From IMG/VR virus record IMGVR_UViG_3300028844_004984: a stretch of 64,000 bases of DNA; one strand, written 5' to 3'. This stretch comes from a virus. Shown here in pieces: positions 3,298 through 63,539 of this stretch (positions within the stretch are counted from its first letter, which is position 1; each line of letters opens with the position of its first letter). The notes under the pieces are model-generated. The model made no database searches. It saw only the letters and a program-made list of their open reading frames with translations, and was not told where the DNA came from. The translations under genes were made by a program, and so were the position numbers.

Positions 3298-3331
3298 TTT
3301 GGATATTAAAAATAATTTTCGTATATTTATA
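3298..3331 (+). promoter_or_regulatory. Overlapping Bacteroidota-type promoter (TTTG-N20-TATATTTA) and late TATTTATA motif upstream of portal
   Basis: TTTG at 3298, TATATTTA at 3322, TATTTATA at 3324-3331. Confidence 0.55.
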
Positions 3332-3361
3332 GATTGTAATGGTATATAAAAGAATAAGATT

Positions 3362-12489: not shown

Positions 12490-12511
12490 TCATAACTGAA
12501 TTACAATAATT

Positions 12512-12537
12512 AAGGGGAGCTTCGGCTCCCCTTTTTT
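12512..12537 (+). terminator. Intrinsic terminator
   Basis: GGGGAGC-TTCG-GCTCCCC followed by TTTTTT. Confidence 0.9.
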
Positions 12538-12549
12538 ATGTCCATATGA

Positions 12550-12557
12550 TATTTATA
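12550..12557 (+). promoter_or_regulatory. Putative late promoter TATTTATA
   Basis: Exact octamer just after the terminator. Confidence 0.6.
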
Positions 12558-12589
12558 GTAAATGGTTACTTAATTTCTAAAAGGATAGT

Positions 12590-13249: not shown

Positions 13250-13293
13250 TATTTGATATATTTATTAGTAGTACTAATTAATTAAGGAAACGT

Positions 13294-14238
13294 GTGGTAG
13301 ACTATTCAGGTTCTTTTAGCGGTTCATTTACTGGTTCAATACTTTCCACAAATGGCGTAATCTCATCATCAGCACAGGTGATTGGGAGTTTGCCAATGGG
13401 TGTAATATCGGGCTCATCACAAATAAGTGGTGATGATTTGACTATTGATTATTATAACCTAACAAATCTACCACTTACAATCACACCATTCCAAGCAAAT
13501 TCTATATTAGCCAATAACGCACTACGTGATAATTTCACAAGTAATGTTAAGGTTAGATTAAATGCTGAAGATGTACTTAGTGGTTCGTTAAAAGGGCAGT
13601 TGCCAGTTGGTACAATATCATCATCTTTACAATTAATTGGTGAATTTGATGATAGATACGGAAACGAACTAAACGATGGGTTGGTTAGTGGTTCGGCTCA
13701 AATTACCTTATTAGATACCGATAGAACTGGATTCGATACGGGTGATGTGCCTGAGGGTAGTAATCTGTACCACACAAATCAAAGAGTAAAATCTCTATTA
13801 GATACTGAAGGTGTAGTATCATCATCAGCACAGATAACCGCTCTTGGATTTAGTACAACCGATAATGATTCTCAAACCTTAACAATTGCAGGACAAACAT
13901 TATCAATTTCAAATGGTAATAGTATTATACTACCAGATGGTGGCGGCAGTGGTGGTGGTTCATCAATATGGAATACTGGTTCTCAAGACCCAAATTCATA
14001 TACTCATTTGATGACATCAAACAATCTACAAGTAACTGGTAGTTTTGATATAAAAGGAGCACTTACTGTAAATGGTAAGGCGGTGTTCATTCAGAGCCAA
14101 TCATCAGATGCTGGGATGGCCCTAGAGGTTAAAGGTAGGATGCGTGTTTTAGAAGAGCAAATAGGTAACTATATTGCATCAGCCTCAATACAAATAGGAA
14201 ATTCACAAGATTCTATAGATTGTGGTGGATTTTTCTAA
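13294..14238 (+). CDS. Ser/Gly-rich virion (fibre) protein
   Basis: Repeated (V/I)S(G/S)SAQ units; C-terminal IDCGGFF. Confidence 0.65.
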   Translation: MVDYSGSFSGSFTGSILSTNGVISSSAQVIGSLPMGVISGSSQISGDDLTIDYYNLTNLPLTITPFQANSILANNALRDNFTSNVKVRLNAEDVLSGSLKGQLPVGTISSSLQLIGEFDDRYGNELNDGLVSGSAQITLLDTDRTGFDTGDVPEGSNLYHTNQRVKSLLDTEGVVSSSAQITALGFSTTDNDSQTLTIAGQTLSISNGNSIILPDGGGSGGGSSIWNTGSQDPNSYTHLMTSNNLQVTGSFDIKGALTVNGKAVFIQSQSSDAGMALEVKGRMRVLEEQIGNYIASASIQIGNSQDSIDCGGFF

Positions 14239-14300
14239 AAAAAAATGATATTTATGATAAATACTACAGTAAACTGTAGATGATATAATGGGATAAAAAT

Positions 14301-40427: not shown

Positions 40428-41690
40428 ATGGTTGAATTTCTTAGTGAAGGAAGTATATCTATAAACAAAGTATATATTCATCCCGTTTGGGAGAGTATAT
40501 CGGTACACCCACATAATGATGGGTTATCGTTGTTGTATATATATGATATAGAATCCGATAGGGAAATTGTAATCAACCTAAAAAACATCGATATACATAT
40601 AACCTCTTTGGAGAAGTTTAAGTTTCTATTTAAAGAGGCTTATGTGTACGATAACAAATCGTTGATGAATCACATTCAGATTCCAAATTCATATGATGCA
40701 AGTTTGGTTAAGTACTTACAATCGAACCACCCATTGGAATCGAAACTAACTCCAACACATACATTCTATCAACGTAGGTTCAGTAACCTAAAGGGAGTAA
40801 ACAATCTTATTCCAATCTCTAAACATATAGAATCCATCAGAGATACAAAAGATGAATTCATAGAGTATTACGATTTGGGCGGGGGAGAGTTCGATTGTGT
40901 GAAGAAATTTGAAAATTTCTATATCAAGCCACTTCACAAAGTAGAAAAGAATGGAATCAAAACCGAAGGGGGTATGGAGTGGACTCAGTATCACCCATTC
41001 ACTATCACATCACGACCTTCAAACAATTATGGTGGGGTAAATTATGCGGCATTGAATAAAGATGATGGGAGTAGGGATAGATTCGTAAGTAGGTTCAAAG
41101 GGGGGAAGTTGATTCAATTTGATTATGATGCATATCACCCTCGTATCATTGGTAAAATGGTAGATGAACCTATTCCAATAGATATAAGCGGTCACCAAGC
41201 ACTTGCCGATATGTATGGTGTATCCTATGGTGAATCAAAGGGAATTACGTTCCGACAACTATATGGTGGGGTACAATCGGAATATCTACATATTCCGTTG
41301 TTTTCCAAAGTTTCACACAAAATTGATTTGATGTGGATGGAATTCAATCGTAGGGGATATATTAAAACGCCATTGGGTAGGAGATTATCAAAGAGTAGTT
41401 TGAAAGATATGAATGCCAACAAACTATTCAACTATTTACTCCAAGCAACAGAAACGGAGTTGAATATGAGAATACTAACTAAGGTGGTAGACTTTTTAAA
41501 AGATAAGAAGTCCAAAATGGTTTTATACACTTATGATTCATATTTATTGGATATACATCCCGATGAAGTTAGTATTTTACAGAATTTAAAGATACTTATA
41601 GAAGGGAATGGATTCCCTGCAAAAATGGAAATTGGAGATAGATATTCTGAAATGAAATCTACAGATATTGAAACACTGGATATAGTATGA
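40428..41690 (+). CDS. Compact, divergent family A DNA polymerase-like protein
   Basis: TSRPSN, motif A FDYDAYHPR, motif B SKGITFRQLYG, NYLLQATE, motif C YTYDS. Confidence 0.8.
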   Translation: MVEFLSEGSISINKVYIHPVWESISVHPHNDGLSLLYIYDIESDREIVINLKNIDIHITSLEKFKFLFKEAYVYDNKSLMNHIQIPNSYDASLVKYLQSNHPLESKLTPTHTFYQRRFSNLKGVNNLIPISKHIESIRDTKDEFIEYYDLGGGEFDCVKKFENFYIKPLHKVEKNGIKTEGGMEWTQYHPFTITSRPSNNYGGVNYAALNKDDGSRDRFVSRFKGGKLIQFDYDAYHPRIIGKMVDEPIPIDISGHQALADMYGVSYGESKGITFRQLYGGVQSEYLHIPLFSKVSHKIDLMWMEFNRRGYIKTPLGRRLSKSSLKDMNANKLFNYLLQATETELNMRILTKVVDFLKDKKSKMVLYTYDSYLLDIHPDEVSILQNLKILIEGNGFPAKMEIGDRYSEMKSTDIETLDIV

Positions 41691-52676: not shown

Positions 52677-53111
52677 ATGAAAGAAGTATTAAATAAACTA
52701 AAAGAGTTTCACTCAACGTATGGGCACCCAATCGAATTAGAGCCCACAGCTCAAACAGAAGAAATGGCTGAGTTGAGATACAAATTGGCAAAAGAAGAGT
52801 TAGATGAGTATTTGGAGGCAAATCAAAACGATGACCCTATTGAAATAGCAGATGCACTAGCTGACCAGTTGTATATTTTGTTGGGAACAATGTTGGTTCA
52901 CGGAATGCATGATGTTATCGAAGATGTGTTCAATGAAGTACATCGTTCCAATATGTCAAAGTTAGGTGAAGATGGTAACCCCATCTATCGTGATGACGGT
53001 AAGGTTATGAAAGGACCAAACTACACTAAACCAGAATTGGGTAGTATTATATCAAACGTTTGGAAAGAGAAACGAGCTCAGTTAAACATTCCGTTTAATG
53101 AGGAAGTTTAG
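52677..53111 (+). CDS. MazG-like (DR2231/PRA-PH type) dNTP pyrophosphohydrolase
   Basis: EELDEY, EIADALADQLY, EVHRSNMSK, DGKVMKG. Confidence 0.87.
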   Translation: MKEVLNKLKEFHSTYGHPIELEPTAQTEEMAELRYKLAKEELDEYLEANQNDDPIEIADALADQLYILLGTMLVHGMHDVIEDVFNEVHRSNMSKLGEDGNPIYRDDGKVMKGPNYTKPELGSIISNVWKEKRAQLNIPFNEEV

Positions 53112-53112
53112 G

Positions 53113-53316
53113 ATGGCCCTAAGAGGAGAATCCCACCCGGCACATAAACTTACTGAGGAGCAAGTAAACACTATCAGAAAACTATGGAAGATTGGGCATA
53201 GGAATGTTAGGGTTTTAGCAAGAAATCATAGCGTATCACCTGCGAATATTCGTAGAATTGTTAGGAATGAAACTTGGACACATTTGTTAGTGGGTGAGTT
53301 TGATAAATACCAATAA
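53113..53316 (+). CDS. Stand-alone HTH DNA-binding protein (HNH-endonuclease C-terminal type)
   Basis: GE.HPAHKLTEEQV..IR...LAR...VS...I..IV...TW. Confidence 0.65.
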   Translation: MALRGESHPAHKLTEEQVNTIRKLWKIGHRNVRVLARNHSVSPANIRRIVRNETWTHLLVGEFDKYQ

Positions 53317-54074
53317 TGAAGGAAGAGGGAAAGAACTATTGTGATGTATCAAAATTATCAATCCGACCGATTTCTAAATCGGTAGCAAAGGGTATCATTA
53401 TCAACAATCATTATAGTGGGTTGTGGACAAAGGTATCATACGCATTGGGTTTGTTCGTTGAGGATGGTTCACATCAGTTTTTTGATTCTACAGATAAGTT
53501 GATTGGGGTTGCGTGTTATGGCGACCCCATTGGTAGATTGACTGGGCAATCCATATCGGAAACGTTAGATAGGACTGAGGTTTTAGAATTAGTTCGATTG
53601 TTCGTTTTTGATGGGTATGGTTCAAATATCGAAAGTTGGTTCTTATCACAAACATTTGATTGGCTGAGAACAAACGTTTCAAAGATAAAAGCACTCATAT
53701 CCTACTCAGACCCAAAAGAAGGGCACGCTGGGACAATCTATCAAGCAACAAATTGGATTTATCAAGGTAACAAACTTAGATTCAATGATAGTTGGAGTTT
53801 TAAGTTTGAAGAAGATGGAAGATGGATACATGGTAAAACCATATTTCCACAATACAGAACAAACGACCCTAAGAAGATACAAGAGCAGGTAAATAAACCT
53901 TTTTGGATTCGAAAAGAACCAAGAAAACATAGATACGTTTACATATTAGCTAGGGGCGGTGAGCGTAGGAAACTACTGAAGAATTTGAAACACCCAACAT
54001 TTCCATATCCAAAGGGAAGTGAAGATGTTGAGATGGAAGTACATAAATTACAACCAATTGAAAGAAACGGATAA
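53316..54074 (+). CDS. Mom-like GNAT-fold DNA modification protein, paralog 1
   Basis: HYS, LIGVACYG, LELVRL, NIESWFL, ISYSD..GHAGTIYQATNWIYQG, KHRYV. Confidence 0.8.
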   Translation: MKEEGKNYCDVSKLSIRPISKSVAKGIIINNHYSGLWTKVSYALGLFVEDGSHQFFDSTDKLIGVACYGDPIGRLTGQSISETLDRTEVLELVRLFVFDGYGSNIESWFLSQTFDWLRTNVSKIKALISYSDPKEGHAGTIYQATNWIYQGNKLRFNDSWSFKFEEDGRWIHGKTIFPQYRTNDPKKIQEQVNKPFWIRKEPRKHRYVYILARGGERRKLLKNLKHPTFPYPKGSEDVEMEVHKLQPIERNG

Positions 54075-54858
54075 AATATATTGTGATGTATCCAAAGTGC
54101 ATATAGCACCAATCGCCAAATCGATTGCTAAGGATATCATCGTAAAGAAACACTACACTCACGCGTGGACTGCGTGTAGATATGCATTGGGCATCTACTA
54201 TAAAACTGATGGTGATTCATTTCAGTTTGGAGATGATAAACTCATTGGTTGCGCAATATATGGATTCCCAGTTGGAGCAAGAGCAGCAACCTCTGTATGT
54301 GAGGGATTAACTAAGGATAACGCATTGGAGTTGACCAGATTGTACATCGATGATGGGTATGGTTCGAATATCGAATCATATGCGATGGGACAAACATTCA
54401 AATGGTTGAAAGAAAACGATAAGAACATTAAGTTGTTGATATCGTATGCCGATGCGGGACAGGAACACTTAGGTAAGATTTATCAGGCAACTAATTGGAT
54501 TTATCAAGGGTTATCAACCGACATCGCACTAATGCCAAACTATGGTATCTCACTAACGAAAGACCCGTACAATTGGATTCATAGTAGAACGGTATATTCA
54601 CTTTGGGGTAGTTCAAATTTAGACCACCTTAAAAACGAAATTGGTAAAGAGGGGCATAGTGAATTTTGGAGGAGAATGGAGCCACCAAAACACAGATACA
54701 TCCAACTATTACCACAAAACAAAAAAGAGAAGAAAGATTTGATTAAACGGTTGAAGCATGAAATCAAACCATATCCAAAGAATACGGATGATTTTAATAC
54801 AGAGGTTGTGAATCATAAAACAACTTATGTAGCTGAGAGTACCGAAAGTTTTTGGTGA
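54058..54858 (+). CDS. Mom-like GNAT-fold DNA modification protein, paralog 2 (probable TTG start)
   Basis: N-terminus LKETDKIYCDVSK aligns with paralog 1 MKEEGKNYCDVSK; LELTRL, ISYADAGQEHLGKIYQATNWIYQG, KHRYI. Confidence 0.8.
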   Translation: MKETDKIYCDVSKVHIAPIAKSIAKDIIVKKHYTHAWTACRYALGIYYKTDGDSFQFGDDKLIGCAIYGFPVGARAATSVCEGLTKDNALELTRLYIDDGYGSNIESYAMGQTFKWLKENDKNIKLLISYADAGQEHLGKIYQATNWIYQGLSTDIALMPNYGISLTKDPYNWIHSRTVYSLWGSSNLDHLKNEIGKEGHSEFWRRMEPPKHRYIQLLPQNKKEKKDLIKRLKHEIKPYPKNTDDFNTEVVNHKTTYVAESTESFW

Positions 54859-55349
54859 TGAATAAAGTGTTAGTTCTAAATTCAGATTACACCCCATTGA
54901 ACGTAACAAATATGCGGCGTGGATTCATTCTTGTGATGAAAGGCAAGGCTGAAATTGTAAAAGAGGATGTGAACAAAATTGTAACTACGATTGGAGAGTT
55001 CGCTAAACCAATAATCATACGATTACTCAATTATATCGGATATCGGAATATGGGTATAAAGGTAAATCGTAAACGGATTATGAAGCGTGATGGTTTTGAG
55101 TGTGGATATTGTGGTTCGAAAAAGAATCTTACAATCGACCATATCATTCCTAAATCTCGTGGTGGTGGTAACACTTGGGATAATTTGGTGACTTGTTGTA
55201 GTAGATGTAACACAATCAAAGATGATAGGACTCCCAAAGAAGCAGATATGGTATTGAGAGTTAAACCACATCAACCATCTATATTTTCATCGGTAATTTC
55301 AGATGAAGTGGAAACTGAGTGGATTTTGTACAAAAAAAGTTTCCAATAA
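54858..55349 (+). CDS. HNH endonuclease (McrA/HNH_5-like)
   Basis: RD...CGYCG..LTIDHIIPKSRGG..W.NLVTCC..CN..K. Confidence 0.9.
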   Translation: MNKVLVLNSDYTPLNVTNMRRGFILVMKGKAEIVKEDVNKIVTTIGEFAKPIIIRLLNYIGYRNMGIKVNRKRIMKRDGFECGYCGSKKNLTIDHIIPKSRGGGNTWDNLVTCCSRCNTIKDDRTPKEADMVLRVKPHQPSIFSSVISDEVETEWILYKKSFQ

Positions 55350-55350
55350 A

Positions 55351-55382
55351 TTTGGTAGATTGAAAAACATTCCTTATATTAG
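55351..55382 (+). promoter_or_regulatory. Bacteroidota-type promoter
   Basis: TTTG-N20-TATATTAG. Confidence 0.65.
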
Positions 55383-55412
55383 TAGTATAAGAGATAAAAT
55401 GTATGTACCCGT

Positions 55413-56546
55413 ATGAACTTTTGGGATAGTGTAGATTATAACAATGCTAGAAAGGTGTTGGTGATACCTAATATCACTAACTCTTCTAATATTGAAAAAG
55501 ATTCGTTTATTGATGTGATACATAATCATATCAAAGGACTGGAGAAGTATGGTGAGTACTATTGGCATGTTTTAGTACCAACTGGAAATGTTACGAAGAA
55601 ACTAAACTTACCAAATGTGAAACAACATCAGATTGATATTCCAGGTGATATGATGAACCAACGTTCGTTCCCATCTGATAAGTTGATGAAACTTCTAAAG
55701 GATATCGATTATGATGTAATCTATTCACACCTGCCCGATTGGCCTCAAGTCGGTAGATACAAAAACGATATCAACACTAAAATAGTTGGGTATTGCCATT
55801 GGTGGGAAATGAAGTCCTGTAATGGTGTAGACCGTAGACCTGGTAAAGCAAAGTGGTTGTGGTTACCCATCGAACTATTAGGTATATCTCAGATGGAAAC
55901 CTGTTACTTAAATACACAAGACCAGAAGAATAGGGTGTTGGAAGAGGCGAGAGAAACATTCAATGAAGAGTTTGTTCAGAAGTTGGATGATATTCTCACT
56001 GTTTGGAACTTAGGATTGGAAGAATCCAAAATAGTATCCGAACCAAAATCAGAAAAGGAAAAGGTGATTGTATTCAACCACCGAGCAGCTGCATACAAGG
56101 GGTATCCTAAGTTTATGGAGTTGATGGAAGAATATCGTAAACAGCGACAGGATTTCAAAGTTTGGATTCCGCAATTAAATGGTAAACCACCATATGGGTG
56201 GGTAGATACTACCAAAGTACCAAAGCATGAGTACTATAAGAGATTGCAGGATTGTACCGTCGGTGTACAGATGAGGCAAACGAATTATGGTTGGAGCGTG
56301 AGTGGTACTGATTGTATGATGAATGGAACTCCAATGATTTGGCAGGAATCCGATTGTTATCACGAAATCGACCCGAATGGTATGTTCTTCAAATACAAAA
56401 AAGAATTCTTTGAGTATTTGGATAAGATGTTAGATGATGAACCATTCCGAAAAGAGCAAGAGTTAAAATCAGTAGAGAGGGCAAACGAGCTATCTAAGAA
56501 TGAGGGTAAAATGCTTGGAGAACTACACAAAAAGTTGTATATTTAA
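55413..56546 (+). CDS. GT-B glycosyltransferase, candidate DNA glycosyltransferase
   Basis: DYDVIYSH, VFNHR..YKGY, EYY..L, GWSVSGTDCMMNGTP; located next to PolB. Confidence 0.75.
   Translation: MNFWDSVDYNNARKVLVIPNITNSSNIEKDSFIDVIHNHIKGLEKYGEYYWHVLVPTGNVTKKLNLPNVKQHQIDIPGDMMNQRSFPSDKLMKLLKDIDYDVIYSHLPDWPQVGRYKNDINTKIVGYCHWWEMKSCNGVDRRPGKAKWLWLPIELLGISQMETCYLNTQDQKNRVLEEARETFNEEFVQKLDDILTVWNLGLEESKIVSEPKSEKEKVIVFNHRAAAYKGYPKFMELMEEYRKQRQDFKVWIPQLNGKPPYGWVDTTKVPKHEYYKRLQDCTVGVQMRQTNYGWSVSGTDCMMNGTPMIWQESDCYHEIDPNGMFFKYKKEFFEYLDKMLDDEPFRKEQELKSVERANELSKNEGKMLGELHKKLYI
56514..56545 (+). promoter_or_regulatory. Bacteroidota-type promoter; likely leaderless transcript
   Basis: CTTG-N20-TATATTTA; ATG 4 nt downstream. 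Confidence 0.65.
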
Positions 56547-56549
56547 GGT

Positions 56550-59066
56550 ATGTATCAAAACGCTTATTACGAAAAAGAGGGTGGTATCATCCATTGCTGG
56601 GATGATGAAAAAGGTTACTTTACCAAAAAGTATCGTAACTATGGTTATGTTAGAGATGGTAATGGTTCTTACGAATCAATCTATGGGGAACGGTTGAAGA
56701 AGATTAACTTTTGGAAAAACGAAGATAATCTAAAACTTTATGAATCGGATGTAAATGAAATGACCCGTTTCTTAATCGATGAATATGGTGATTCAGACGA
56801 GGTATCCACTGGTCATACTGTACTAACCTTTGATATTGAGGTAGAGATGAATAGTGGACTGCCCGATACAGATAAAGCAGAGAATACTATGACTTCTGTA
56901 GCATTCCACGATTCAGCAACAAACGATTATTATGCTTATGTACTAAGTGAGGGTGAAGAGATAAACAAAACTATCAAAGGGGCTAAAGTCCGTTCCTTTC
57001 GTAGTGAAGAAGATATGTTGATAGCATTTGTAAATGCTTGGGAAGAGATTTCACCGACTATCATTACGGGATGGAACATTGACTTCTTTGATGTTACATA
57101 TTTGTACAATCGATTAAAGCGGGTACTTGGGACATCAACAGCAAATAGGCTATCCCCAATCAGAAAAGTACATTGGAACAAATATCGTAAACGTTACATC
57201 ATCGCAGGTGTATCTGCATTGGATTACATCGCATTATTTAAGAACTTTACATATACGGAATATCCCAACTATCGCTTGGATACTATCGCTAAATTAGAAT
57301 TAGGTAGAGGGAAGATTGAGTACGAAGGAAACTTAGACCAATTATTCAGAGATGATATTGAGAAGTTTGTTGAATATAACTTAGTTGATGTTGAGTTGGT
57401 GGTAGATATGGATAAGAAACTACAATTCATCGATTTGGCTAGAGCAATATGCCATGCGGGTCATGTGTTCTATGAAGATTTCTTATTCTCATCGAAATGG
57501 TTAGAGGGAGCAATTCTCACATTCCTTAGACGGAGTGGTAGGGTAGCTCCGAACAAACCACAGCGGATGTTTAAAAATGCTGATGGTTCTGATGGGGAAG
57601 GTAAGTTTATAGGTGCATATGTAAAACAACCAAAGCCCGGCCTTTACAAATGGGTATACGATTTGGATTTAACATCACTATACCCATCAATCATTATGAG
57701 TATCAATATCTCACCTGAAACTAAGATTGGTAAGGTGAAGAACTACTCCGCTGAAGAATCTATGAAGGGAAATATTGAATCATATTCTATTATAGATAAT
57801 AATGGTAGTGAATCAAAGCCCGTATCAAAAGAACACTTTACCAACTTTATTGAACAACAAAAGCTATCAATAGCATCAAATGGTGTGTTGTATTCACAGA
57901 ATAGGGTTGGTATCATACCTGAGATTCTTAACGTGTGGTTTGATAAGAGAGTAGAGTACAAAGACCTGATGAAAAAATATGGTAAAGAGGGTAATGATGA
58001 ACTTTATAAGTTCTACTCTCAGCGCCAGTTGGTACAAAAAATTATGTTGAATTCCCTTTACGGAGTATTGGGATTACCATCATTCAGATTCTACGATGTT
58101 GATAACGCAGAAGCAGTAACACTTACAGGTCAGACTGTAATTAAAACAACTGAGATGATTGCCAATCAATACTATAGTAAGAACATTGGTGAAACAAAAG
58201 ATTACAACATCTATGTTGATACTGATTCTGTATTCTATGAAGCAGCACCATTGGTAAAGGCTAGGAATCCTAATATTGATGTAACATCTGATAAAGAAAT
58301 GATTCCAGCTATTCTATCAGTTGCTAAAGAGGTTGAGGACCATATCAATAAAGTATATGATTCAATGGCATTGAAAATGTTCAATATTAATTCACATAGA
58401 TTTGATATTAAGCAAGAAACTATCGCTAAGGGTGGGTTTTGGGTATCTAAGAAAAGATACGCTCAATGGATTATCAACGATAACACTGTAGATTGTGATA
58501 AGTTGGATGTGAAAGGATTGGATGTGAAACGTTCATCATTCCCAACTTACTTCAAAGAAGTGATGAGTACTGTGTTGATGGATATCCTAAAGGATGAGAA
58601 CAAAGATAAAATTGATGAGTATATTCTTAGGAAGAAAGATGAGATGAAAACTACCAACTTTATCGATATAGCAAAGAATTCAGCAGTTAAAGGTATGAGT
58701 AAGTATACATTTAAGAATCAAGCACTGGGTGAGTTTATGAAAGGAACACCAGCGCATGTTAAAGCAGCACTTACTTACAATCAACTATTGAAATATTATA
58801 ATGCAGCATTTAAATTTGAACCAATGAAAGATGGTGATAAGATTAAGTGGGTGTATTTGAAACCTAATCCATTAGGATTAGACTCCGTTGGGTTGACGGG
58901 ATATAACGACCCGAAAGAGATTTTGGATTTGGTAGAACAGCATATAGATTATGAGCTAATTTGGACAAAAGAATTAGAGAATAAGTTAGATGATTTCTAC
59001 AAAGCAATGGGGTGGGAAAAGCCAAATCCGAATCTAGCAAAAGCATCACAATTTTTTGGATTTTAA
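56550..59066 (+). CDS. Family B DNA polymerase (T4 gp43-like)
   Basis: FDIE, GWNIDFFD, YNLVDV, DLTSLYPS, KIMLNSLYG, YVDTDS, KKRYA. Confidence 0.97.
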   Translation: MYQNAYYEKEGGIIHCWDDEKGYFTKKYRNYGYVRDGNGSYESIYGERLKKINFWKNEDNLKLYESDVNEMTRFLIDEYGDSDEVSTGHTVLTFDIEVEMNSGLPDTDKAENTMTSVAFHDSATNDYYAYVLSEGEEINKTIKGAKVRSFRSEEDMLIAFVNAWEEISPTIITGWNIDFFDVTYLYNRLKRVLGTSTANRLSPIRKVHWNKYRKRYIIAGVSALDYIALFKNFTYTEYPNYRLDTIAKLELGRGKIEYEGNLDQLFRDDIEKFVEYNLVDVELVVDMDKKLQFIDLARAICHAGHVFYEDFLFSSKWLEGAILTFLRRSGRVAPNKPQRMFKNADGSDGEGKFIGAYVKQPKPGLYKWVYDLDLTSLYPSIIMSINISPETKIGKVKNYSAEESMKGNIESYSIIDNNGSESKPVSKEHFTNFIEQQKLSIASNGVLYSQNRVGIIPEILNVWFDKRVEYKDLMKKYGKEGNDELYKFYSQRQLVQKIMLNSLYGVLGLPSFRFYDVDNAEAVTLTGQTVIKTTEMIANQYYSKNIGETKDYNIYVDTDSVFYEAAPLVKARNPNIDVTSDKEMIPAILSVAKEVEDHINKVYDSMALKMFNINSHRFDIKQETIAKGGFWVSKKRYAQWIINDNTVDCDKLDVKGLDVKRSSFPTYFKEVMSTVLMDILKDENKDKIDEYILRKKDEMKTTNFIDIAKNSAVKGMSKYTFKNQALGEFMKGTPAHVKAALTYNQLLKYYNAAFKFEPMKDGDKIKWVYLKPNPLGLDSVGLTGYNDPKEILDLVEQHIDYELIWTKELENKLDDFYKAMGWEKPNPNLAKASQFFGF

Positions 59067-59098
59067 TTTGGATATTCCAAAATAAATTCGTATATTTA
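59067..59098 (+). promoter_or_regulatory. Bacteroidota-type promoter
   Basis: TTTG-N20-TATATTTA. Confidence 0.7.
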
Positions 59099-59129
59099 AG
59101 ACCAATAAACAATAAATAATTAATTTCAT

Positions 59130-59825
59130 ATGAAAAAAGCAAGTATTGAAAGTTTCATTAACCGATACAATCTCGGTGGTGAAGTAGAATCGGTAAAGAT
59201 TACATCTACTGATTCGGAGATGAAGGTAAGTTTTATCTCAGATGATAAAACTTTGTTAGGAGAGGTAACCTCTAAAGAGGGTGATTTTCCCAATGGTGAG
59301 TTTGGTGTTTACACAACTTCTCAGTTAAAAGCACTTTTGGGTGTATTAGAATCTAATGTGGAGGTTGACTCTACTGAATCTTACATCAAGTTTTCAGATA
59401 AGGGTACATCGGTTAATTATATGCTGGCAGACCTTTCTGTGATTCCAGTTGTTCCTGATTTGAAGCAAGTACCACCTTTCAACTCAGAAGTTACTTTGAA
59501 CGATGAGTTTACATCTAAGTTTATCAAATCAAAAGGAGCGCTGAGTGAATCAGATACATTTACATTTAGTTGTATTGGTGATAAGGGTGAGGTTGTTTTA
59601 GGATATTCCACAATTAACACTAACCGAATCTCAATCTCAGTAGAATGTAAGTGTGATGGGGATGTACAACCAATCTCATTTTCAGCTAAGTATCTGAAAG
59701 AAATCCTAAATGCTAACAGAGCCTCTAAATCTGCTACATTAAAAATTTCATCGCAGGGGCTTTCTTACATTGAATTTGAAACAGATACCATCACATCAAA
59801 ATACTATTTGGTAGAGATTAAATAA
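59130..59825 (+). CDS. Sliding clamp (T4 gp45-like)
   Basis: Size, FGVY...L..LL, FSAKYL, LKISSQG, YYLV; between PolB and clamp loader. Confidence 0.8.
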   Translation: MKKASIESFINRYNLGGEVESVKITSTDSEMKVSFISDDKTLLGEVTSKEGDFPNGEFGVYTTSQLKALLGVLESNVEVDSTESYIKFSDKGTSVNYMLADLSVIPVVPDLKQVPPFNSEVTLNDEFTSKFIKSKGALSESDTFTFSCIGDKGEVVLGYSTINTNRISISVECKCDGDVQPISFSAKYLKEILNANRASKSATLKISSQGLSYIEFETDTITSKYYLVEIK

Positions 59826-61039
59826 TGAGTATGAACTTTTGGGATACAGAACCAGCTAAACCAATCTTTGACTTTGAAACTCAAAAGAGGGAGTTAATCG
59901 AAAATATGGATTATCTATCTTCGATGACAGTTGAAGAACAAACACTTTACAAAAAGTGGGTTGAGTTACAAGAGCCCTCTATGATTAGGGATAAATCGCA
60001 CATTGCGGAACTATACCCAACACAGTGGGCTCCGGCTGATATTAACAATTTGGAACAAACCATTTCGGAGATTGAAGCGTTAGAACCTTATGTTGAGATT
60101 GTAGAAGATGCTAAGGATTCTACTAAATGGGCATATCTCAGAAGGATGATTCATACAATGGGGTTTACCGCCAATCCTGGTCGAAACGTTAAGATTAATG
60201 TTAAAGATAGGGTTACTGGAAAGCTTTTAGGGCAGATATCACTAGCATCTGATGTAACCTCTATGAAGGTTAGAGATGACTATATTGGGTGGAGTAAAGA
60301 TAATAAGTTCGTAGATAAAAAACTCAACCATACTACAATAGCATCTACAATTGTGTGTACTCAGCCACTTGGATTTAACTTCTTAGGTGGTAAGTTAGTT
60401 GCTATGATGACCACTGTGCCTGAAGTGAGGGAGTTTTGGAAAGATAAATATGGCCAGACCCTTATAGCAGTTGGGACTACATCTCTGTATGGAATTCACT
60501 CTCAGTACAATGGTATTCCTCACTTCAAAACATTAGGTGAATCGGCCGGAAAGATTTCAATAAAACCAGATGATAAGTACTACGAACCTTGGCATCAATG
60601 GATTAAAGAAAACAGAGCAGATTGGTACGAAACTGCAATTACGAATGAAAGAATCCGTAATGGTAAAAGTATGGGTGTAGCAAGTGGGCCTGTAAGTGGT
60701 ATCAAACAAAAGATTCTTGGGCAGATATTCAAAGAATGTGGTATCAAACAATCAGATTATCATCATGGGTTTAAAAGAGGTGTATATCTCGCTATGATGT
60801 ATGAGAATGGGCCGGAGTTCCTTAAAGGTGAAATTGGTGAAGATGAGCTAAAGATGAAGCAGAAGTTCGAAGAGGGTGTGGATTACATCAGTAGATGGTG
60901 GAAGAAAAAGGCAATAAAACGATACACCAAACTACACTCTGAAGGTAGATTGAAGCCAGAGCATTTGTTCTATATCGATGCGATTGGTATGAGTTGGGAA
61001 GATATGAAAAGTAAGTATTTGAAAGAAGTTGGTAGATAA
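59825..61039 (+). CDS. DUF4338/Druantia DruA-like protein
   Basis: NPGRN, LLGQISLASD..VRD.YIGW, QPLGFNFLGGKL, TTSLYG..SQY, LGESAG. Confidence 0.7.
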   Translation: MSMNFWDTEPAKPIFDFETQKRELIENMDYLSSMTVEEQTLYKKWVELQEPSMIRDKSHIAELYPTQWAPADINNLEQTISEIEALEPYVEIVEDAKDSTKWAYLRRMIHTMGFTANPGRNVKINVKDRVTGKLLGQISLASDVTSMKVRDDYIGWSKDNKFVDKKLNHTTIASTIVCTQPLGFNFLGGKLVAMMTTVPEVREFWKDKYGQTLIAVGTTSLYGIHSQYNGIPHFKTLGESAGKISIKPDDKYYEPWHQWIKENRADWYETAITNERIRNGKSMGVASGPVSGIKQKILGQIFKECGIKQSDYHHGFKRGVYLAMMYENGPEFLKGEIGEDELKMKQKFEEGVDYISRWWKKKAIKRYTKLHSEGRLKPEHLFYIDAIGMSWEDMKSKYLKEVGR

Positions 61040-61971
61040 TGAATAACACAGAAAACACACTTTGGGTTGAGAAGTACAGACCCGATACATTGGAAGGGTA
61101 TGTTGGAAACGAACATATCCTTGAGAAAGTAAAGATTTACATTGAGAATGAGGATGTACCTCACTTGCTACTCTATGGTGTGGCGGGTACTGGTAAGACT
61201 ACCCTCGCTAAAATCATTACCAATCAGATTGATTGTGATGTGATGTACATCAACGCTTCGGATGAAAACAACGTAGATACAGTTAGGGATAAGATTAGAG
61301 GATTCGCATCATCGATGGGATTCCGTAAGTGGAAAGTGATTATTTTGGATGAGAGCGATTACCTAACTCCGAACGCACAGGCGGCACTTCGTAATCTAAT
61401 GGAAACGTTCTCCAAAACAACACGATTCATTTTGACGTGTAACTATGTTGAAAAAATCATCGACCCAATTCAGAGTAGATGCCAAACGTTTGGTATTACA
61501 CCACCATCTAAGAAAGAGGTGGCGCTGCGTTTGAAAGAGATTTTGGATTCTGAGAATGTATCATATGAGATGCAGGATTTAGCTATTTTGGTAAATAGTG
61601 GATATCCTGATATTCGTAGAGTTCTGAACGCAGGACAACGGCAGGTTATAAAGGGTGAATTGAAGATTGATAAAACATCAACGATTCAAGCGAATTATAT
61701 GGATGAGGTATTGAATGTACTTAAATCTGATGGTAATGTAAAAGAGGTGTTCCTAAAGAGTAGGCAGATTATCGCAGATTCAAAAGTTAAGGACTTCACA
61801 CCATTCTACAGATTTTTGTACGATAATGTAGATGATTTCGCAGCTGGAAAAGTGGGTAACACAATAATCAAAATTGCAGATGCTCAATACAAAGATGCAT
61901 CAGTAGTGGATAAAGAAATCAACATCGTAGCGATGTTATTGGAAATTTTAATTGATATCAAAGGAAAATAA
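61039..61971 (+). CDS. Clamp loader AAA+ subunit (T4 gp44/RFC-like)
   Basis: LWVEKYRP, GVAGTGKTT, INASD, ILDESD, SRC. Confidence 0.95.
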   Translation: MNNTENTLWVEKYRPDTLEGYVGNEHILEKVKIYIENEDVPHLLLYGVAGTGKTTLAKIITNQIDCDVMYINASDENNVDTVRDKIRGFASSMGFRKWKVIILDESDYLTPNAQAALRNLMETFSKTTRFILTCNYVEKIIDPIQSRCQTFGITPPSKKEVALRLKEILDSENVSYEMQDLAILVNSGYPDIRRVLNAGQRQVIKGELKIDKTSTIQANYMDEVLNVLKSDGNVKEVFLKSRQIIADSKVKDFTPFYRFLYDNVDDFAAGKVGNTIIKIADAQYKDASVVDKEINIVAMLLEILIDIKGK

Positions 61972-61973
61972 TT

Positions 61974-62243
61974 ATGGCAAAAGGAAAGGGAAAATCAAAA
62001 ATAGTTGGAATGGGACAACCAACACAACAAGCACCACAAATGCAGTTAGACCCAACAAAGTTACCAACGGTACATTGTGAGAATTGTGATTCTATTTTTT
62101 GGGAAGAAGTGACAATGTTCAAAGAAGTTCCAGCGGTTCAATCACCGAATGGGCAGAAATCAATGTTACCAATTCCTGTAGTTAGATGTGCAGAGTGTGG
62201 GCATGTATCGGAAAAGTTTTTACCTAAAGAGTTATTACCTTAA
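61974..62243 (+). CDS. Small zinc-ribbon protein
   Basis: CENC...CAECGH. Confidence 0.7.
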   Translation: MAKGKGKSKIVGMGQPTQQAPQMQLDPTKLPTVHCENCDSIFWEEVTMFKEVPAVQSPNGQKSMLPIPVVRCAECGHVSEKFLPKELLP

Positions 62244-62698
62244 TGGCAAAAAAGAAAAGTGATAACACTGTAAAGGCTAAGAGTATCTTCCAACATCTTA
62301 GTGGTATAAAGGAGAAAAAAGATTCTTGGGAATCTCTATCTGAGATGGATAAGAAATCATTTACTCCATTTATCATAAATCGTTGGTTAAGTATGAACTT
62401 GGACTTACTACCTATCATAAATGTACTACAGAAGTACACAATCGGCTTGTTATCCGCCAGAGATGTATACAAAGTGTATTTGGATTTTCTACCAAAGCAA
62501 AAAACATTTGATAAGTACATCAAAGGTAAGAAAGATGGTAAGTACAACAAAGAGTTACTACAACACCTATCAACTTGGTATGGTGTATCACATAGAGAAG
62601 TAATTGATTATTTGGATATACTACCAAAGGATGAGGTGATTTCGATTCTAATGAAGTATGGTATGACCGATAAGGAAGCAAAAAAGTTATTGAAATGA
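62243..62698 (+). CDS. Clamp loader small subunit (T4 gp62-like)
   Basis: FTPFIINRWLSM, YIK, YGVS..E...YL; synteny. Confidence 0.7.
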   Translation: MAKKKSDNTVKAKSIFQHLSGIKEKKDSWESLSEMDKKSFTPFIINRWLSMNLDLLPIINVLQKYTIGLLSARDVYKVYLDFLPKQKTFDKYIKGKKDGKYNKELLQHLSTWYGVSHREVIDYLDILPKDEVISILMKYGMTDKEAKKLLK

Positions 62699-63105
62699 GC
62701 GAAGTATTAAGAGAATCAAAAACCAAAGTAGTTCACAGAGGTGAGCGAGTGGTTACAACGAATAAAGAAGAAACTGCAGTACAATACTGCGAACGAATGT
62801 ATCCTGATACCACAAATGAGTTCAAAGTTATTTTGGATGAGATGTATGATACATTCTGTAAGAAGCAACGTAACTATGGGCCAGGTAATATTTCGGTGGG
62901 AACTGATTTGAAAACCGATGATGATAAGAAGTTATCATTAACTGGGCTGTGGTTCAGAATCAACGATAAGGTTCAGCGATTGAAGCAATTGGTTGTATTA
63001 GGTCAACCAGATGAGGTTGGAGAATCAGTACAAGATACATATCAGGATTTGAGTGTATATGGTGTGATTGCTCAGATTGTTCAACGTGGAAAGTGGGCTA
63101 AATGA
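62695..63105 (+). CDS. Nucleotide modification-associated domain 1 (Nmad1/DUF1599-like) protein
   Basis: KKQRNYG, RINDKVQRL, ESVQDTYQDLSVYGVI. Confidence 0.75.
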   Translation: MSEVLRESKTKVVHRGERVVTTNKEETAVQYCERMYPDTTNEFKVILDEMYDTFCKKQRNYGPGNISVGTDLKTDDDKKLSLTGLWFRINDKVQRLKQLVVLGQPDEVGESVQDTYQDLSVYGVIAQIVQRGKWAK

Positions 63106-63539
63106 ACTGGAATGAATATTTCAGAGGTATAGCACACCAAGTAAAACTAAAATCAAAGGATGAACGTACTCAGATAGGTGCTGTTATCGTTGGAACTGAT
63201 AACGAAATCGTATCAACTGGGTACAATTCATTTCCCAGAGGTATTGTTGATTCTAAATCAGAAAGACAAGAAAGGCCTGAAAAATACTATTGGTTTGAGC
63301 ACGCAGAACGAAACGCAATCTACAACGCAGCTAGAATTGGAGTATCCACGAAAGGTTGTAGAATGTATCTAACTTGTGGTATTCCGTGTTCTGATTGTGC
63401 TAGGGGTATTATAAACGCAGGTATCATCGAAATCTATTGTGAGCGAGAGGGTGGTGCAACGGGCAGTAAGTGGGATGAATCAGCTATCCGTTCAATGAAG
63501 ATGTTCAATGAAACTGGAATAGAAATAAAATTCTATTAA
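63102..63539 (+). CDS. dCMP deaminase
   Basis: TGYN, HAERNAI, PCSDCAR.IINAGI. Confidence 0.92.
   Translation: MNWNEYFRGIAHQVKLKSKDERTQIGAVIVGTDNEIVSTGYNSFPRGIVDSKSERQERPEKYYWFEHAERNAIYNAARIGVSTKGCRMYLTCGIPCSDCARGIINAGIIEIYCEREGGATGSKWDESAIRSMKMFNETGIEIKFY

What the first reader, a model, noticed from the sequence alone, without database searches (positions are those of the whole stretch)
52677..63539. Candidate replisome-embedded multi-enzyme DNA hypermodification system
Seen: interleaved with PolB, clamp and clamp loader are a MazG-like pyrophosphatase, two tandem Mom-like GNATs, a GT-B glycosyltransferase, a DUF4338/DruA-like protein, an Nmad1/DUF1599-like protein and dCMP deaminase. Known: Mu Mom carbamoylmethylates adenine; T4 AGT/BGT are GT-B enzymes that glucosylate hmC; Nmad1 and MazG-like proteins travel with phage base-modification loci. 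Inference: the set could build a compound modification, such as a glycosylated base that is further acylated, or parallel A and pyrimidine modifications. I cannot match this combination to a characterised pathway. No hydroxymethylase or TET/JBP gene lies in this window.
Basis: partly seen in the sequence, partly recalled or inferred. Interest (0 to 1): 0.85.

Follow-up and report, generated by a model that had tools for sequence, protein, structure and literature searches.

The report
Mom-plus-DruA DNA-modifying genes in phage replisome
An uncultured marine T4-like phage carries two Mom-type adenine-modifying enzymes and a third, Mom-like-fold enzyme of the unexplained DruA family among its DNA polymerase, clamp and clamp-loader genes; in relatives these genes are gained and lost together, which gives a testable lead on what DruA does.

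Summary
The gene inventory is confirmed. MazG, HTH, Mom1, Mom2, HNH, a GT4-type GT-B, PolB, clamp, a DruA/DUF4338 protein, gp44, a Zn-finger protein, gp62, a Nmad1-like protein and dCMP deaminase are all on the + strand. The phage is an uncultured marine T4-like myovirus.

The accessory genes sit in two hypervariable slots flanking PolB-clamp. Across 90 relatives plus the window, 48 relatives have both Mom and DruA-like, 41 have neither, and 1 is an exception. Seven of 8 independent contrasts on the PolB tree agree and none opposes (p=0.016).

The best solved match of the DruA-like fold is Mu Mom (Z 10). Both Moms keep the Mu residues R111 and S124. In Mom-less relatives the clamp/loader slot holds a TAGT, a DNA-methylase-like gene or a GT-like gene.

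Mom2, GT and DruA-like carry a terminal [NSQ]FW peptide resembling the PolB tail QFFGF. That suggests clamp docking, which is not shown.

MazG, Nmad1-like and dCMP deaminase do not co-vary. The GT is enriched beside Mom but also occurs without it. No pyrimidine pathway is supported.

Most likely reading: a Mom-centred, post-replicative adenine modification module with a coupled DruA GNAT. The chemistry is unknown. The scan found and followed up the same arrangement earlier on other genomes.

The parts
52677..53111 (+). MazG-like nucleotide pyrophosphohydrolase. Accessory nucleotide-metabolism gene, not linked to Mom/DruA.
   Evidence: PF01503 3.2e-16; phrog_671 3e-42. Present in 17/41 Mom+ and 5/16 Mom- relatives.
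53098..53316 (+). 72-aa HTH protein. Backbone gene marking the 5' edge of variable slot 1.
   Evidence: Weak HTH_38 hit and phrog_517. Present in 41/41 Mom+ and 15/16 Mom- relatives.
53316..54074 (+). Mom1, a Mom-family GNAT with no terminal FW peptide.
   Evidence: PF25680 148.5 bits. Matches 8BV8 at 1.1e-10, aligned to the C-terminus. Equivalents of Mu H58/Y59, R111, S124, Y159 and W181 are conserved; R151 is K.
54058..54858 (+). Mom2, a Mom-family GNAT that ends in ...SFW. The start is probably TTG 54058 (alternatives GTG 54019 or ATG 54025). It overlaps the Mom1 stop.
   Evidence: PF25680 153.5 bits. 44% identical to Mom1. R111/S124 equivalents conserved, R151 equivalent not basic. 48 of 49 Mom2 orthologs have an aromatic pair (FW, FF or FY) as the last two residues; every C-terminus listed ends in FW. 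Start-codon context.
54852..55349 (+). HNH homing endonuclease, a mobile insertion between Mom2 and GT.
   Evidence: HNH_5 6.6e-16; phrog_16726 1e-36. Found only in the window and L006.
55413..56546 (+). GT4-type GT-B glycosyltransferase with the N-terminal peptide MNFWD. Acceptor unknown.
   Evidence: AF2 pLDDT 83. VIA Z 26.7-25 to SPS, MshA, BshA and PglA over residues 10-377. N-terminal M.FW is conserved in orthologs. Distribution across relatives.
56550..59066 (+). Family B DNA polymerase (gp43-like) with the C-terminal tail ...KASQFFGF.
   Evidence: PF00136 7e-43 and PF03104. Tail conserved in 55 distinct (non-identical) sequences of the PolB cluster. 48% identical to Mel-JY01 PolB.
59130..59825 (+). 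Sliding clamp (gp45-like).
   Evidence: phrog_223 3.5e-12; weak PCNA_C hit. Its position matches the Mel-JY01 backbone.
59825..61039 (+). DruA/DUF4338-family GNAT in slot 2, between clamp and clamp loader. N-terminal peptide M(SM)NFWD. The start is 59825 (TAATG overlap with the clamp stop) or 59831.
   Evidence: PF14236 78.8 bits; PADLOC DruA 6.8e-17. AF2 pLDDT 94.9. Top match among 48,161 PDB representatives is Mu Mom 8bv8_B: Z 10.0, 166 residues aligned, rmsd 3.9. Co-varies with Mom.
61039..61971 (+). Clamp-loader large subunit (gp44-like AAA+).
   Evidence: AAA 6e-18, DNA_pol3_delta2, Gp44_lid.
61974..62243 (+). 89-aa Zn-finger protein. Backbone gene.
   Evidence: Mcm10-like Zn motif 6e-6. 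Present in nearly all relatives and in Mel-JY01.
62243..62698 (+). Clamp-loader small subunit (gp62-like).
   Evidence: PF16790 7e-6. Position as in Mel-JY01.
62695..63105 (+). Nmad1/DUF1599-like protein. Backbone gene, not specific to the Mom module.
   Evidence: PF07659 24.3 bits against a cut-off of 25; phrog_1485 6e-15. Present in 39/41 Mom+ and 15/16 Mom- relatives. 54% identical in Mel-JY01.
63102..63539 (+). dCMP deaminase. Sporadic nucleotide-metabolism gene.
   Evidence: PF00383 1.4e-19. Only in the window and L006 among the first 80 loci.

Best explanation
The stretch is the replication-gene block of an uncultured marine T4-like myovirus. Related genomes are about 170-186 kb.

Two hypervariable slots flank PolB-clamp and hold swappable DNA-modification genes.
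- Slot 1 lies between the HTH gene and PolB. Here it holds two overlapping Mom paralogs, a selfish HNH insertion and a GT4 glycosyltransferase.
- Slot 2 lies between the clamp and the clamp loader. Here it holds a DruA/DUF4338 GNAT.

Shown:
- The gene families.
- The fold of the DruA-like protein, whose nearest solved structure is Mu Mom.
- Conservation of the Mu Mom catalytic R111 and S124 in both Moms.
- Near-perfect co-gain and co-loss of Mom and DruA-like in relatives.
- Conserved terminal [NSQ]FW peptides on Mom2, GT and DruA-like that resemble the PolB tail.

Inferred:
- The Mom proteins acylate adenine N6 in double-stranded phage DNA after replication, taking an amino acid from charged tRNA as Mu Mom does.
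- Mom1 and Mom2 act as a heterodimer or have different specificities. Mom2 is the core, because single-Mom relatives keep the Mom2 type.
- The DruA-like GNAT performs a coupled second acyl transfer on the same adduct or on nearby DNA.
- The terminal peptides dock the enzymes on the sliding clamp, so that new DNA is marked as it is made.
- The product protects phage DNA from host nucleases.

MazG, Nmad1-like, dCMP deaminase, RNR and thioredoxin are ordinary backbone or nucleotide-supply genes.
For: - Family assignments.
- Mu Mom mechanism and essential residues: PMC13219725.
- Equivalents of R111, S124, H58/Y59 and Y159 are invariant in 13 Mom1/Mom2/Mom3 sequences.
- DruA-like model has pLDDT 94.9. 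Its top PDB match is Mom 8bv8, Z 10.0, against at most 8.7 for generic GNATs. DUF4338 is called a GNAT in PMC10853773.
- Co-variation: in the first 58 rows (57 relatives plus the window), 42 have both, 16 have neither, 0 are discordant. In 90 loci, 48 have both, 41 neither, 1 is Mom-only.
- On the PolB tree Mom changes 9 times and DruA 8 times. Of 8 independent pairs, 7 go the same way and 0 go opposite, sign test p=0.0156.
- Positional analogues in slot 2 of Mom-less relatives: TAGT DNA glycosyltransferase PF20691 3e-35, an N6_N4 DNA-methylase-like 543-aa protein, and a 490-aa GT-like protein.
- DruA-domain fusions to ParB_N, UDG and GIY-YIG point to DNA as the substrate.
- A distant lineage (L090) has clamp-DruA-x-gp44-...-Mom-gp62. 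In cyanophage S-SSM7 the DruA-like gene lies between gp44 and gp62, and a Mom is encoded elsewhere in the genome.
- Terminal peptides.
Against: - No chemistry, activity or binding is shown.
- Mom and DruA-like show no detectable sequence similarity (hhalign probability 1%). The margin of Mom over generic GNATs is only 1.3 Z units.
- Outside this clade each gene occurs alone. The pelagiphages Mosig and HTVC008M have DruA-like but no Mom. Of the 25 Synechococcus-phage records with DruA-like, only S-SSM7 was searched directly for Mom and it has one; a tblastn with that Mom at E 1e-10 counted 3 Synechococcus-named records in the phage collection. Most cultured phages with Mom lack DruA.
- The two slots are only about 3.3 kb apart, so linkage and cassette swapping could contribute to the co-variation.
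- The Mu R151 equivalent is K in Mom1 and not basic in Mom2.
- The GT is separable from Mom/DruA.
Confidence: 0.55

Rival explanations
1. The genes are independent accessory cargo in recombination hot spots. Slots 1 and 2 collect unrelated accessory genes. Mom modifies adenine on its own, as in Mu. DruA-like does something unrelated. Their co-variation reflects physical linkage and block exchange around PolB-clamp, not a shared function.
For: - Mom and DruA-like each occur alone in other phage groups.
- Mu Mom needs no partner (PMC13219725).
- The slots are 3.3 kb apart.
- In methylase-type relatives the clamp gene itself is a divergent allele, about 50% identical while PolB is 81-87% identical. 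This shows block exchange that includes slot 2.
- Both slots are highly mosaic.
Against: - PolB lies between the slots, yet its tree shows 8-9 separate switches. Seven of 8 independent contrasts are concordant and none is opposite.
- The only exception is a 24%-identical Mom-like gene at another site.
- A conserved terminal FW peptide is shared by Mom2, GT and DruA-like.
- A distant lineage again combines the two genes inside the clamp-loader operon.
Confidence: 0.25
2. DruA-like is a protein or small-molecule acyltransferase, or an anti-defence factor, and does not modify DNA. For example it could acetylate a replisome or host protein, or interfere with a host defence.
For: - Most GNATs act on proteins or small molecules, and generic GNATs score Z 8-8.7, close to Mom's 10.
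- Foldseek gave only weak p300/GNAT hits.
- There is no sequence similarity to Mom.
- A conserved Q180-P-x-G183...G188-G189-K190 loop looks like a GNAT acyl-CoA-binding loop, judged by eye.
- The function of DruA in Druantia is unknown.
Against: - DruA domains are fused to ParB_N, UDG and GIY-YIG DNA-binding or DNA-cleaving domains.
- The same slot in relatives holds DNA-modifying enzyme families.
- DruA-like co-varies with a DNA-modifying enzyme.
- No DruB-E genes lie nearby.
Confidence: 0.15
3. All seven accessory genes (MazG, 2x Mom, GT, DruA-like, Nmad1-like, dCMP deaminase) build one compound modification, or run parallel adenine and pyrimidine pathways.
For: - The genes are close together and co-oriented.
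- Some GT is present in 41 of 48 Mom+ loci against 5 of 42 Mom- loci.
- The GT shares the terminal peptide.
Against: - MazG, Nmad1-like and dCMP deaminase do not co-vary with Mom.
- A GT377-like gene persists in a Mom-/DruA- clade, and 7 Mom+ loci lack any GT.
- The ThyA homolog in a near-complete relative is a true thymidylate synthase.
- No TET/JBP hit was found.
Confidence: 0.05

Closest known systems
Phage Mu Mom (PF25680; PDB 8BV8; PMC13219725)
   Same: Mom1 and Mom2 match the family model at full length. They keep the equivalents of R111, S124, H58/Y59, Y159 and W181. The DruA-like protein has Mom as its nearest solved fold.
   Different: - Mu has one mom gene, controlled by Com and Dam and placed at the genome end. 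Here two or three paralogs sit among replisome genes.
- Mom2 carries a C-terminal FW peptide.
- The R151 equivalent is K in Mom1 and not basic in Mom2.
- The donor tRNA, target sequence and product are unknown.
- A DruA-family partner co-varies with the Moms.
DruA of type I Druantia (PF14236/DUF4338)
   Same: The protein matches the family model above its cut-off (78.8 bits) and the PADLOC DruA model (6.8e-17). The family has a GNAT fold.
   Different: - It is a solo gene in a phage. There is no DruB-E and no DruE helicase.
- It is embedded between the clamp and the clamp loader.
- It carries an N-terminal FW peptide.
- The function of DruA itself is unknown, so this comparison explains nothing yet.
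DruA-like genes of T4-like cyanophages and pelagiphages (S-SSM7, S-PRM1, Mosig, HTVC008M; noted in the Phold preprint 10.1101/2025.08.05.668817)
   Same: They are homologous at 27-35% identity. In S-SSM7 the gene also lies inside the clamp-loader cluster, between gp44 and gp62.
   Different: - Mom was absent from the two pelagiphages searched; S-SSM7, the only cyanophage searched, has one elsewhere in its genome.
- They have no N-terminal FW peptide.
- The aligned part of the cyanophage proteins covers only query residues about 116-380; S-SSM7's own protein is 380 aa.
Replication-coupled DNA modification through clamp docking (eukaryotic DNMT1-PCNA; the T4/RB69 polymerase C-terminal tail on gp45). 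From general knowledge.
   Same: A short terminal aromatic peptide sits on the polymerase (…KASQFFGF). Similar peptides sit on the modification enzymes.
   Different: Binding is not shown here. On GT and DruA-like the peptides are N-terminal, and they are only three residues long.
Phage DNA glycosyltransferases (T4 AGT/BGT, TAGT PF20691, the phage HY126 glycosyltransferase of PDB 9ir0)
   Same: The fold is GT-B. The HY126 GT is among the Foldseek matches (E 1.7e-9, TM 0.58).
   Different: The best matches are generic GT4 enzymes (SPS, MshA, BshA, PglA). No hydroxylated or hydroxymethylated base pathway was found that could supply an acceptor.

Membership tests
Mom family (PF25680) | Full-length match to the family model above the gathering score | tested here: met
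   Mom1 scores 148.5 bits and Mom2 153.5 bits against a cut-off of 27.1. Both cover model positions 2-202 of 202. phrog_1384 gives 1e-49 and 8e-47.
Mom family (PF25680) | Catalytic residues R111 and S124 of Mu Mom | tested here: met
   The alignment to 8BV8 (chain index = residue number - 9) places R94 and S107 of Mom1, and the same columns of Mom2, on R111 and S124. Both are invariant in 13 paralogs and orthologs.
Mom family (PF25680) | Essential R151 of Mu Mom | tested here: inconclusive
   Counting back from the aligned Y159, Mom1 has K, while Mom2 has G/F/E and Mom3 has T. This is a loop region, so the alignment is uncertain.
Mom family (PF25680) | Gly-tRNA(Gly)-dependent glycylation of N6-adenine in dsDNA, giving 6-NcmdA | not testable with these tools
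   Needs LC-MS or in vitro assays.
DruA / DUF4338 (PF14236) | Match to the family model above the gathering score | tested here: met
   78.8 bits against a cut-off of 27, model positions 38-297 of 297. PADLOC DruA 6.8e-17.
Type I Druantia defence system | DruA encoded together with DruB-D and the DruE helicase | tested here: not met
   The neighbours are the clamp and the clamp loader. The window ORFs that were scanned (1708-5239 and 37474-63999) gave no large helicase or Dru genes. PADLOC found only the DruA hit among the 7 accessory proteins scanned: both Moms, GT, DruA-like, Nmad1-like, dCMP deaminase, MazG.
GNAT superfamily (DruA-like protein) | GNAT core fold | tested here: met
   Model pLDDT 94.9. 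Z 10.0 to Mom and Z 8.0-8.7 to many GNATs, over residues 81-350.
GT-B / GT4 glycosyltransferases | Two-Rossmann-domain GT-B fold | tested here: met
   Z 26.7-25 with 325-342 aligned residues to SPS, MshA, BshA and PglA. The Pfam GT4/GT1 hits are below their cut-offs (21.7 bits against 28.5).
DNA base glycosyltransferases (T4 AGT/BGT, TAGT) | Specific similarity to a known DNA glycosyltransferase, and an acceptor-forming pathway in the genome | tested here: inconclusive
   Only generic GT4 enzymes rank on top. The HY126 GT sits lower in the Foldseek list. The relatives' ThyA is a true thymidylate synthase. No TET/JBP hit was found, but the control did not ring.
Nmad1 / DUF1599 (PF07659) | Match above the gathering score, and association with base-modification genes | tested here: not met
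   24.3 bits against a cut-off of 25, covering only 42 of 61 positions. The gene is universal in Mom+ and Mom- relatives and 54% identical in Mel-JY01.
T4-type replisome cluster | gp43, gp45, gp44 and gp62 homologs in one block | tested here: met
   The order is the same as in Microcystis phage Mel-JY01. T4-like portal, terminase, gp32 and UvsX homologs lie elsewhere in the window.

The most novel reading that the evidence does not exclude
DruA-family GNATs are DNA-modifying enzymes. In this phage clade one of them works with Mom-type, aminoacyl-tRNA-dependent transferases as a clamp-tethered machine that builds a multi-step acyl or aminoacyl adduct on adenine of newly replicated DNA. The DruA-like enzyme might cap or extend the amino acid that Mom adds, and a glycosyltransferase might decorate the adduct in some lineages. 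If so, bacterial Druantia DruA would by analogy be a DNA-marking enzyme.
Probability: 0.25. Interest if true: 0.85.

Novelty: new variant of a known kind. Interest (0 to 1): 0.68.

Why it matters
Mom-type modification was explained mechanistically only in 2026, and for a single enzyme acting alone. Here an abundant, uncultured group of marine phages keeps two or three Mom paralogs together with a DruA-family GNAT. DruA-like homologs number about 2,800 at E <= 0.001 in one search, and more than 560 PolB relatives were found in IMG/VR.

The function of DruA has been unknown since Druantia was described. Co-variation with Mom, a Mom-like fold, fusions to DNA-binding domains and a slot that otherwise holds DNA methylase or DNA glycosyltransferase genes together give a concrete, cheap test: co-express the genes and run LC-MS on the DNA.

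The swappable slots flanking PolB-clamp, and the shared terminal peptides, also suggest a general way for phages to couple DNA marking to replication. Such modifications matter for restriction evasion, for sequencing and cloning of environmental phage DNA, and as a source of new DNA-modifying enzymes.

Tried and rejected
- Megablast of the whole stretch against 50,697 phage records found no match, so no close cultured relative exists.
- hhalign of a Mom alignment against a DruA alignment gave probability 1%. The link between the two families rests on fold only.
- Foldseek of the DruA-like model against PDB gave only weak acetyltransferase rows, E about 1e-3. VIA-align was needed to rank Mom first.
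- Complex prediction with a clamp trimer plus DruA-like residues 1-78 scored 0.20 against a mark of 0.32. That is no verdict, and it is not used for or against clamp docking.
- Atlas search of the 658-aa slot-1 protein of L001 gave no usable hit. Pfam gave nothing for the 424-658-aa slot-1 proteins or for the 490-550-aa slot-2 proteins.
- The search for related loci with the L090 gp44 found no relatives in IMG/VR, so the second lineage could not be replicated.
- One context look-up (P0125) was not run because the queue was full. P0126 and P0137 gave uninformative or short contexts.
- The TET/JBP search gave no hits, but the control genomes were silent too, so it says little.
- No tRNA gene lies in the window.
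- I considered that the 18-nt identity at the GT and DruA-like starts marks an RNA-level operator. In relatives residue 2 varies (N/S/Q/D) while FW is kept, so selection on the peptide is the simpler reading.
- I considered HTH72 as a Com-like Mom regulator and rejected it, because the gene is present in Mom-less relatives.

Full report
**What is there.** All long ORFs of the stretch lie on the + strand. Pfam, PHROG, NCBIfam and PADLOC scans give this order:

- MazG-like pyrophosphohydrolase, 52677-53111
- a 72-aa HTH protein
- Mom1, 53316-54074
- Mom2, to 54858
- an HNH homing endonuclease, 54852-55349
- a glycosyltransferase, 55413-56546
- family-B DNA polymerase, 56550-59066
- sliding clamp, 59130-59825
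- a DruA/DUF4338 protein, 59825-61039
- gp44-like clamp loader
- an 89-aa Zn-finger protein
- gp62-like clamp-loader subunit
- a weak DUF1599/Nmad1-like protein
- dCMP deaminase, 63102-63539

Upstream lie a 5'-3' exonuclease, a DnaB-like helicase, both RNR subunits and thioredoxin. Elsewhere in the window are a T4-type terminase, a portal protein, gp32 and a RecA/UvsX homolog. It missed the HNH, HTH and Zn-finger genes.

**Which phage.** No whole genome is held for the window, and megablast against cultured phages finds nothing. The closest cultured polymerase is that of Microcystis phage Mel-JY01, at 48% identity. Mel-JY01 has the same backbone: thioredoxin, two small genes, PolB, clamp, gp44, a small gene, gp62, a homolog of the Nmad1-like gene, then a PD-(D/E)XK nuclease. 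It has no Mom and no DruA-like gene. IMG/VR holds more than 560 polymerase relatives, including contigs of 168-186 kb judged 90-98% complete.

**Two variable slots.** Gene maps of relatives show conserved backbone genes with two hypervariable positions.

- Slot 1 lies between the HTH gene and PolB.
- Slot 2 lies between the clamp and gp44.

In the window's type, slot 1 holds Mom1-Mom2 and usually a GT. The GT varies: a GT377 type, a distantly related 372-aa GT preceded by an unknown 598-658-aa protein, a 447-aa GT, or none. Slot 2 holds the DruA-like gene.

Mom-less relatives carry other cargo.

- L037: a P-loop-GNAT fusion in slot 1 and a TET-associated glycosyltransferase in slot 2 (PF20691, 3e-35).
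- L009, L012, L018: an asparagine-synthase-like amidotransferase, a DNA-methylase-like protein and a cupin/Asp-Arg-hydroxylase-like protein in slot 1. Slot 2 holds a 543-550-aa protein that the ESM Atlas groups with N6_N4 DNA methyltransferases.
- L044, L075: a 490-aa distant GT-like protein in slot 2.
- L153, L164: the clamp abuts gp44, as in Mel-JY01.

Slot 2 is thus a place where these phages keep a DNA-modifying enzyme. By position, the DruA-like gene is the analogue of a DNA glycosyltransferase or a DNA methylase.

**Co-variation.** In the first set, 57 loci could be assessed for both slots. With the window that makes 58 rows: 42 had Mom and DruA-like, 16 had neither, none had only one, and there were 5 concordant switches on the PolB tree.

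A second scan centred on a distant member (L080) raised this to 90 loci: 48 with both, 41 with neither, 1 Mom-only. The exception, L133, has a 24%-identical Mom-like gene near the RNR genes and a methylase-type slot 2.

On the PolB tree of 91 rows, Mom changes 9 times and DruA-like 8 times. Of 8 independent pairs that differ in Mom, DruA-like goes the same way in 7, the other way in 0 and is unchanged in 1. The sign test gives p=0.0156.

PolB and the clamp lie between the two slots, and the PolB tree does not follow the cassette type. Joint gain or loss therefore needs two exchanges, or selection. Linkage still contributes: methylase-type relatives carry a divergent clamp allele (about 50% identity where PolB is 81-87%), so the clamp and slot 2 can move as one block.

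**The Mom paralogs.** Both match PF25680 at full length and are 44% identical to each other.

The 2026 study of Mu Mom (PMC13219725) showed several things. Mom is a GNAT that transfers glycine from Gly-tRNA(Gly) to N6 of adenine in dsDNA. An on-base rearrangement to N6-carbamoylmethyl-adenine follows. R111, S124 and R151 are essential, and H58, Y59, W48, Y159 and W181 are important.

Alignment to the crystal sequence 8BV8 (chain index = residue number minus 9, fixed by H58/Y59, W48 and the S124A mutation) shows R111, S124, H58/Y59, Y159 and W181 conserved in both paralogs. These residues, apart from W181, are invariant in all 13 Mom1, Mom2 and Mom3 sequences aligned. The R151 position is K in Mom1 and not basic in Mom2.

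Mom2 probably starts at TTG 54058, as in relatives, and overlaps the Mom1 stop by 17 nt. Relatives with a single Mom keep the Mom2 type, followed by an unknown 424-583-aa protein. Some relatives have a third, short Mom between PolB and the clamp.

**The DruA-like protein.** It matches PF14236 (78.8 bits) and the PADLOC DruA model, but no other Druantia gene is present. An AlphaFold2 model built on 50 diverse homologs has pLDDT 94.9.

Foldseek gives only weak acetyltransferase hits. An exhaustive VIA-align search of 48,161 PDB representatives ranks Mu Mom first: 8bv8_B, Z 10.0, 166 aligned residues, rmsd 3.9, model residues 81-336. Generic GNATs score at most 8.7. Profile-profile comparison finds no sequence similarity to Mom.

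The Aravind group already called DUF4338 a GNAT (PMC10853773). Homologs elsewhere are fused to ParB_N, UDG-superfamily and GIY-YIG/NUMOD3 domains, which points to DNA as the substrate.

Homologs also occur in other marine phages.

- Pelagiphages Mosig and HTVC008M carry one but no Mom.
- 25 Synechococcus-phage records (T4-like cyanophages) carry one. Only S-SSM7 was searched directly for Mom: its DruA-like gene lies between gp44 and gp62, and a Mom is encoded elsewhere in the genome.
- The Phold preprint noted DruA-like proteins in six cyanophages without assigning a function.
- A distant metagenomic lineage (L090; DruA-like 43% identical) has clamp, DruA-like, x, gp44..., ClpP, Mom (52% identical to Mom2), gp62.

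**Terminal peptides.** An earlier first-reader note on this same stretch gave the lead, and I checked it.

- PolB ends in ...KASQFFGF in all 55 distinct (non-identical) sequences of the PolB cluster.
- 48 of 49 Mom2 orthologs have an aromatic pair (FW, FF or FY) as the last two residues, and every C-terminus listed ends in FW, usually [NST]FW; 0 of 45 Mom1 orthologs have such an end.
- GT377 orthologs start with M[NSQ]FW[DE].
- DruA-like orthologs start with M[QNSD]FWD.

These tails lie outside the predicted folds: DruA-like residues 1-6 have pLDDT below 50, and the GT aligns only from residue 10.

Several alternative slot proteins carry similar ends. The methylase-like protein starts MN[HY]FY, the 490-aa protein ends NKFF, and the P-loop-GNAT ends NFWDVE. 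More distant DruA-likes start with NQFFD, GSFFD or NQWF.

From general knowledge, T4/RB69 polymerases bind the clamp through a C-terminal aromatic tail. Clamp docking of the modification enzymes is therefore a reasonable inference, but it is untested. The one complex prediction gave no verdict (listed under Tried and rejected only).

**Genes that do not belong.**

- MazG is present in 17/41 Mom+ and 5/16 Mom- relatives.
- The Nmad1-like gene is universal and 54% identical in Mel-JY01.
- dCMP deaminase and the HNH gene occur only in the window and L006.
- The thymidylate-synthase-family gene of a near-complete relative passes the NCBIfam equivalog cut-off for true thymidylate synthase (339.6 bits against 325).
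- No TET/JBP match was found, though the control was silent.

Nothing therefore supports a hydroxymethyl- or hydroxy-pyrimidine branch.

**The glycosyltransferase.** The GT is an ordinary GT4 fold (Z about 26 to SPS, MshA, BshA and PglA). Some GT sits next to Mom in 41 of 48 Mom+ loci, against 5 of 42 Mom- loci. However, a GT377-like gene with its N-terminal peptide persists in a Mom-/DruA- clade (L164-L167), and 7 Mom+ loci have none. Its acceptor is unknown.

**Verdict.** This is a real, recurrent, replisome-embedded modification module. Its core is Mom2 (with or without Mom1) plus a DruA-family GNAT. Adenine N6 aminoacyl-type modification by the Moms is well grounded in homology. The role of the DruA-like enzyme, clamp tethering and any sugar addition are inferences.

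The scan has already followed up the same arrangement on other genomes and reached the same reading. This report adds four things: a larger co-variation test, the identification of the alternative slot-2 enzymes, the exclusion of MazG, Nmad1-like, the deaminase and a pyrimidine route, and the finding that the GT is separable.

Noticed in passing
L009:4277-9943 and 13304-14935; L018:992-7662 and 11321-12973: Mom-less relatives fill the same two slots with another candidate DNA-modification set. Slot 1 holds an asparagine-synthase-like amidotransferase, an N6_N4 methylase-like 409-aa protein and a cupin/Asp-Arg-hydroxylase-like protein. Slot 2 holds a 543-550-aa methylase-like protein that starts MN[HY]FY.
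   Followed up: partly
L037:8788-9969 and 13276-14529: Another alternative cassette: a P-loop NTPase-GNAT fusion (ending NFWDVE) in slot 1, and a TET-associated glycosyltransferase (PF20691, 3e-35) between the clamp and the clamp loader. No TET gene was looked for in that genome.
   Followed up: no
L009:12588-13301, L012, L018 (clamp genes): Methylase-type relatives carry a divergent clamp allele of 237 aa. It is about 50% identical to the window's clamp, while PolB is 81-87% identical. The clamp seems to travel with the slot-2 enzyme.
   Followed up: partly
window 54852-55349: An HNH homing endonuclease is inserted between Mom2 and GT. Among the first 80 relatives it is shared only with L006. 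L006 has two further small ORFs there (117 and 140 aa).
   Followed up: partly
L043:12523-13134 (also G002): A third, short Mom paralog (203 aa, PF25680 1.7e-35, ending ...QWFG) lies between PolB and the clamp in some relatives.
   Followed up: partly
L090:8285-14328: A distant phage contig from a Logan assembly has clamp, DruA-like, a 206-aa gene, gp44, ..., ClpP, Mom, gp62. This is an independent arrangement of Mom and DruA-like inside the clamp-loader operon. NAD-salvage genes (NAMPT, NUDIX) lie upstream.
   Followed up: partly
L084:4689-5831 (Synechococcus phage S-SSM7): The cyanophage DruA-like gene lies between gp44 and gp62. A tRNA-Gly gene lies 3 kb downstream, and a Mom gene is encoded about 70 kb away.
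   Followed up: partly
P0127, P0134, P0143, P0270: DruA domains are fused to ParB_N (P0127, P0134), to a UDG-superfamily domain (P0143) and to GIY-YIG plus NUMOD3 (P0270). BFVD also holds DruA-like folds in giant viruses (Faunusvirus, Yasminevirus, Dasosvirus).
   Followed up: partly
window 55411-55428 and 59829-59846: An identical 18-nt string (gtatgaacttttgggata) spans the starts of the GT and the DruA-like gene. It encodes MNFWD in both.
   Followed up: partly
window 40428-41690: A 420-aa ORF has only a sub-threshold DNA_pol_A hit (E 2.5e-4). Its neighbours of 649, 214 and 737 aa have no Pfam match.
   Followed up: no
If real, it offers a non-DNA context for phage glycosyltransferases. I could not read that DNA.
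   Followed up: no
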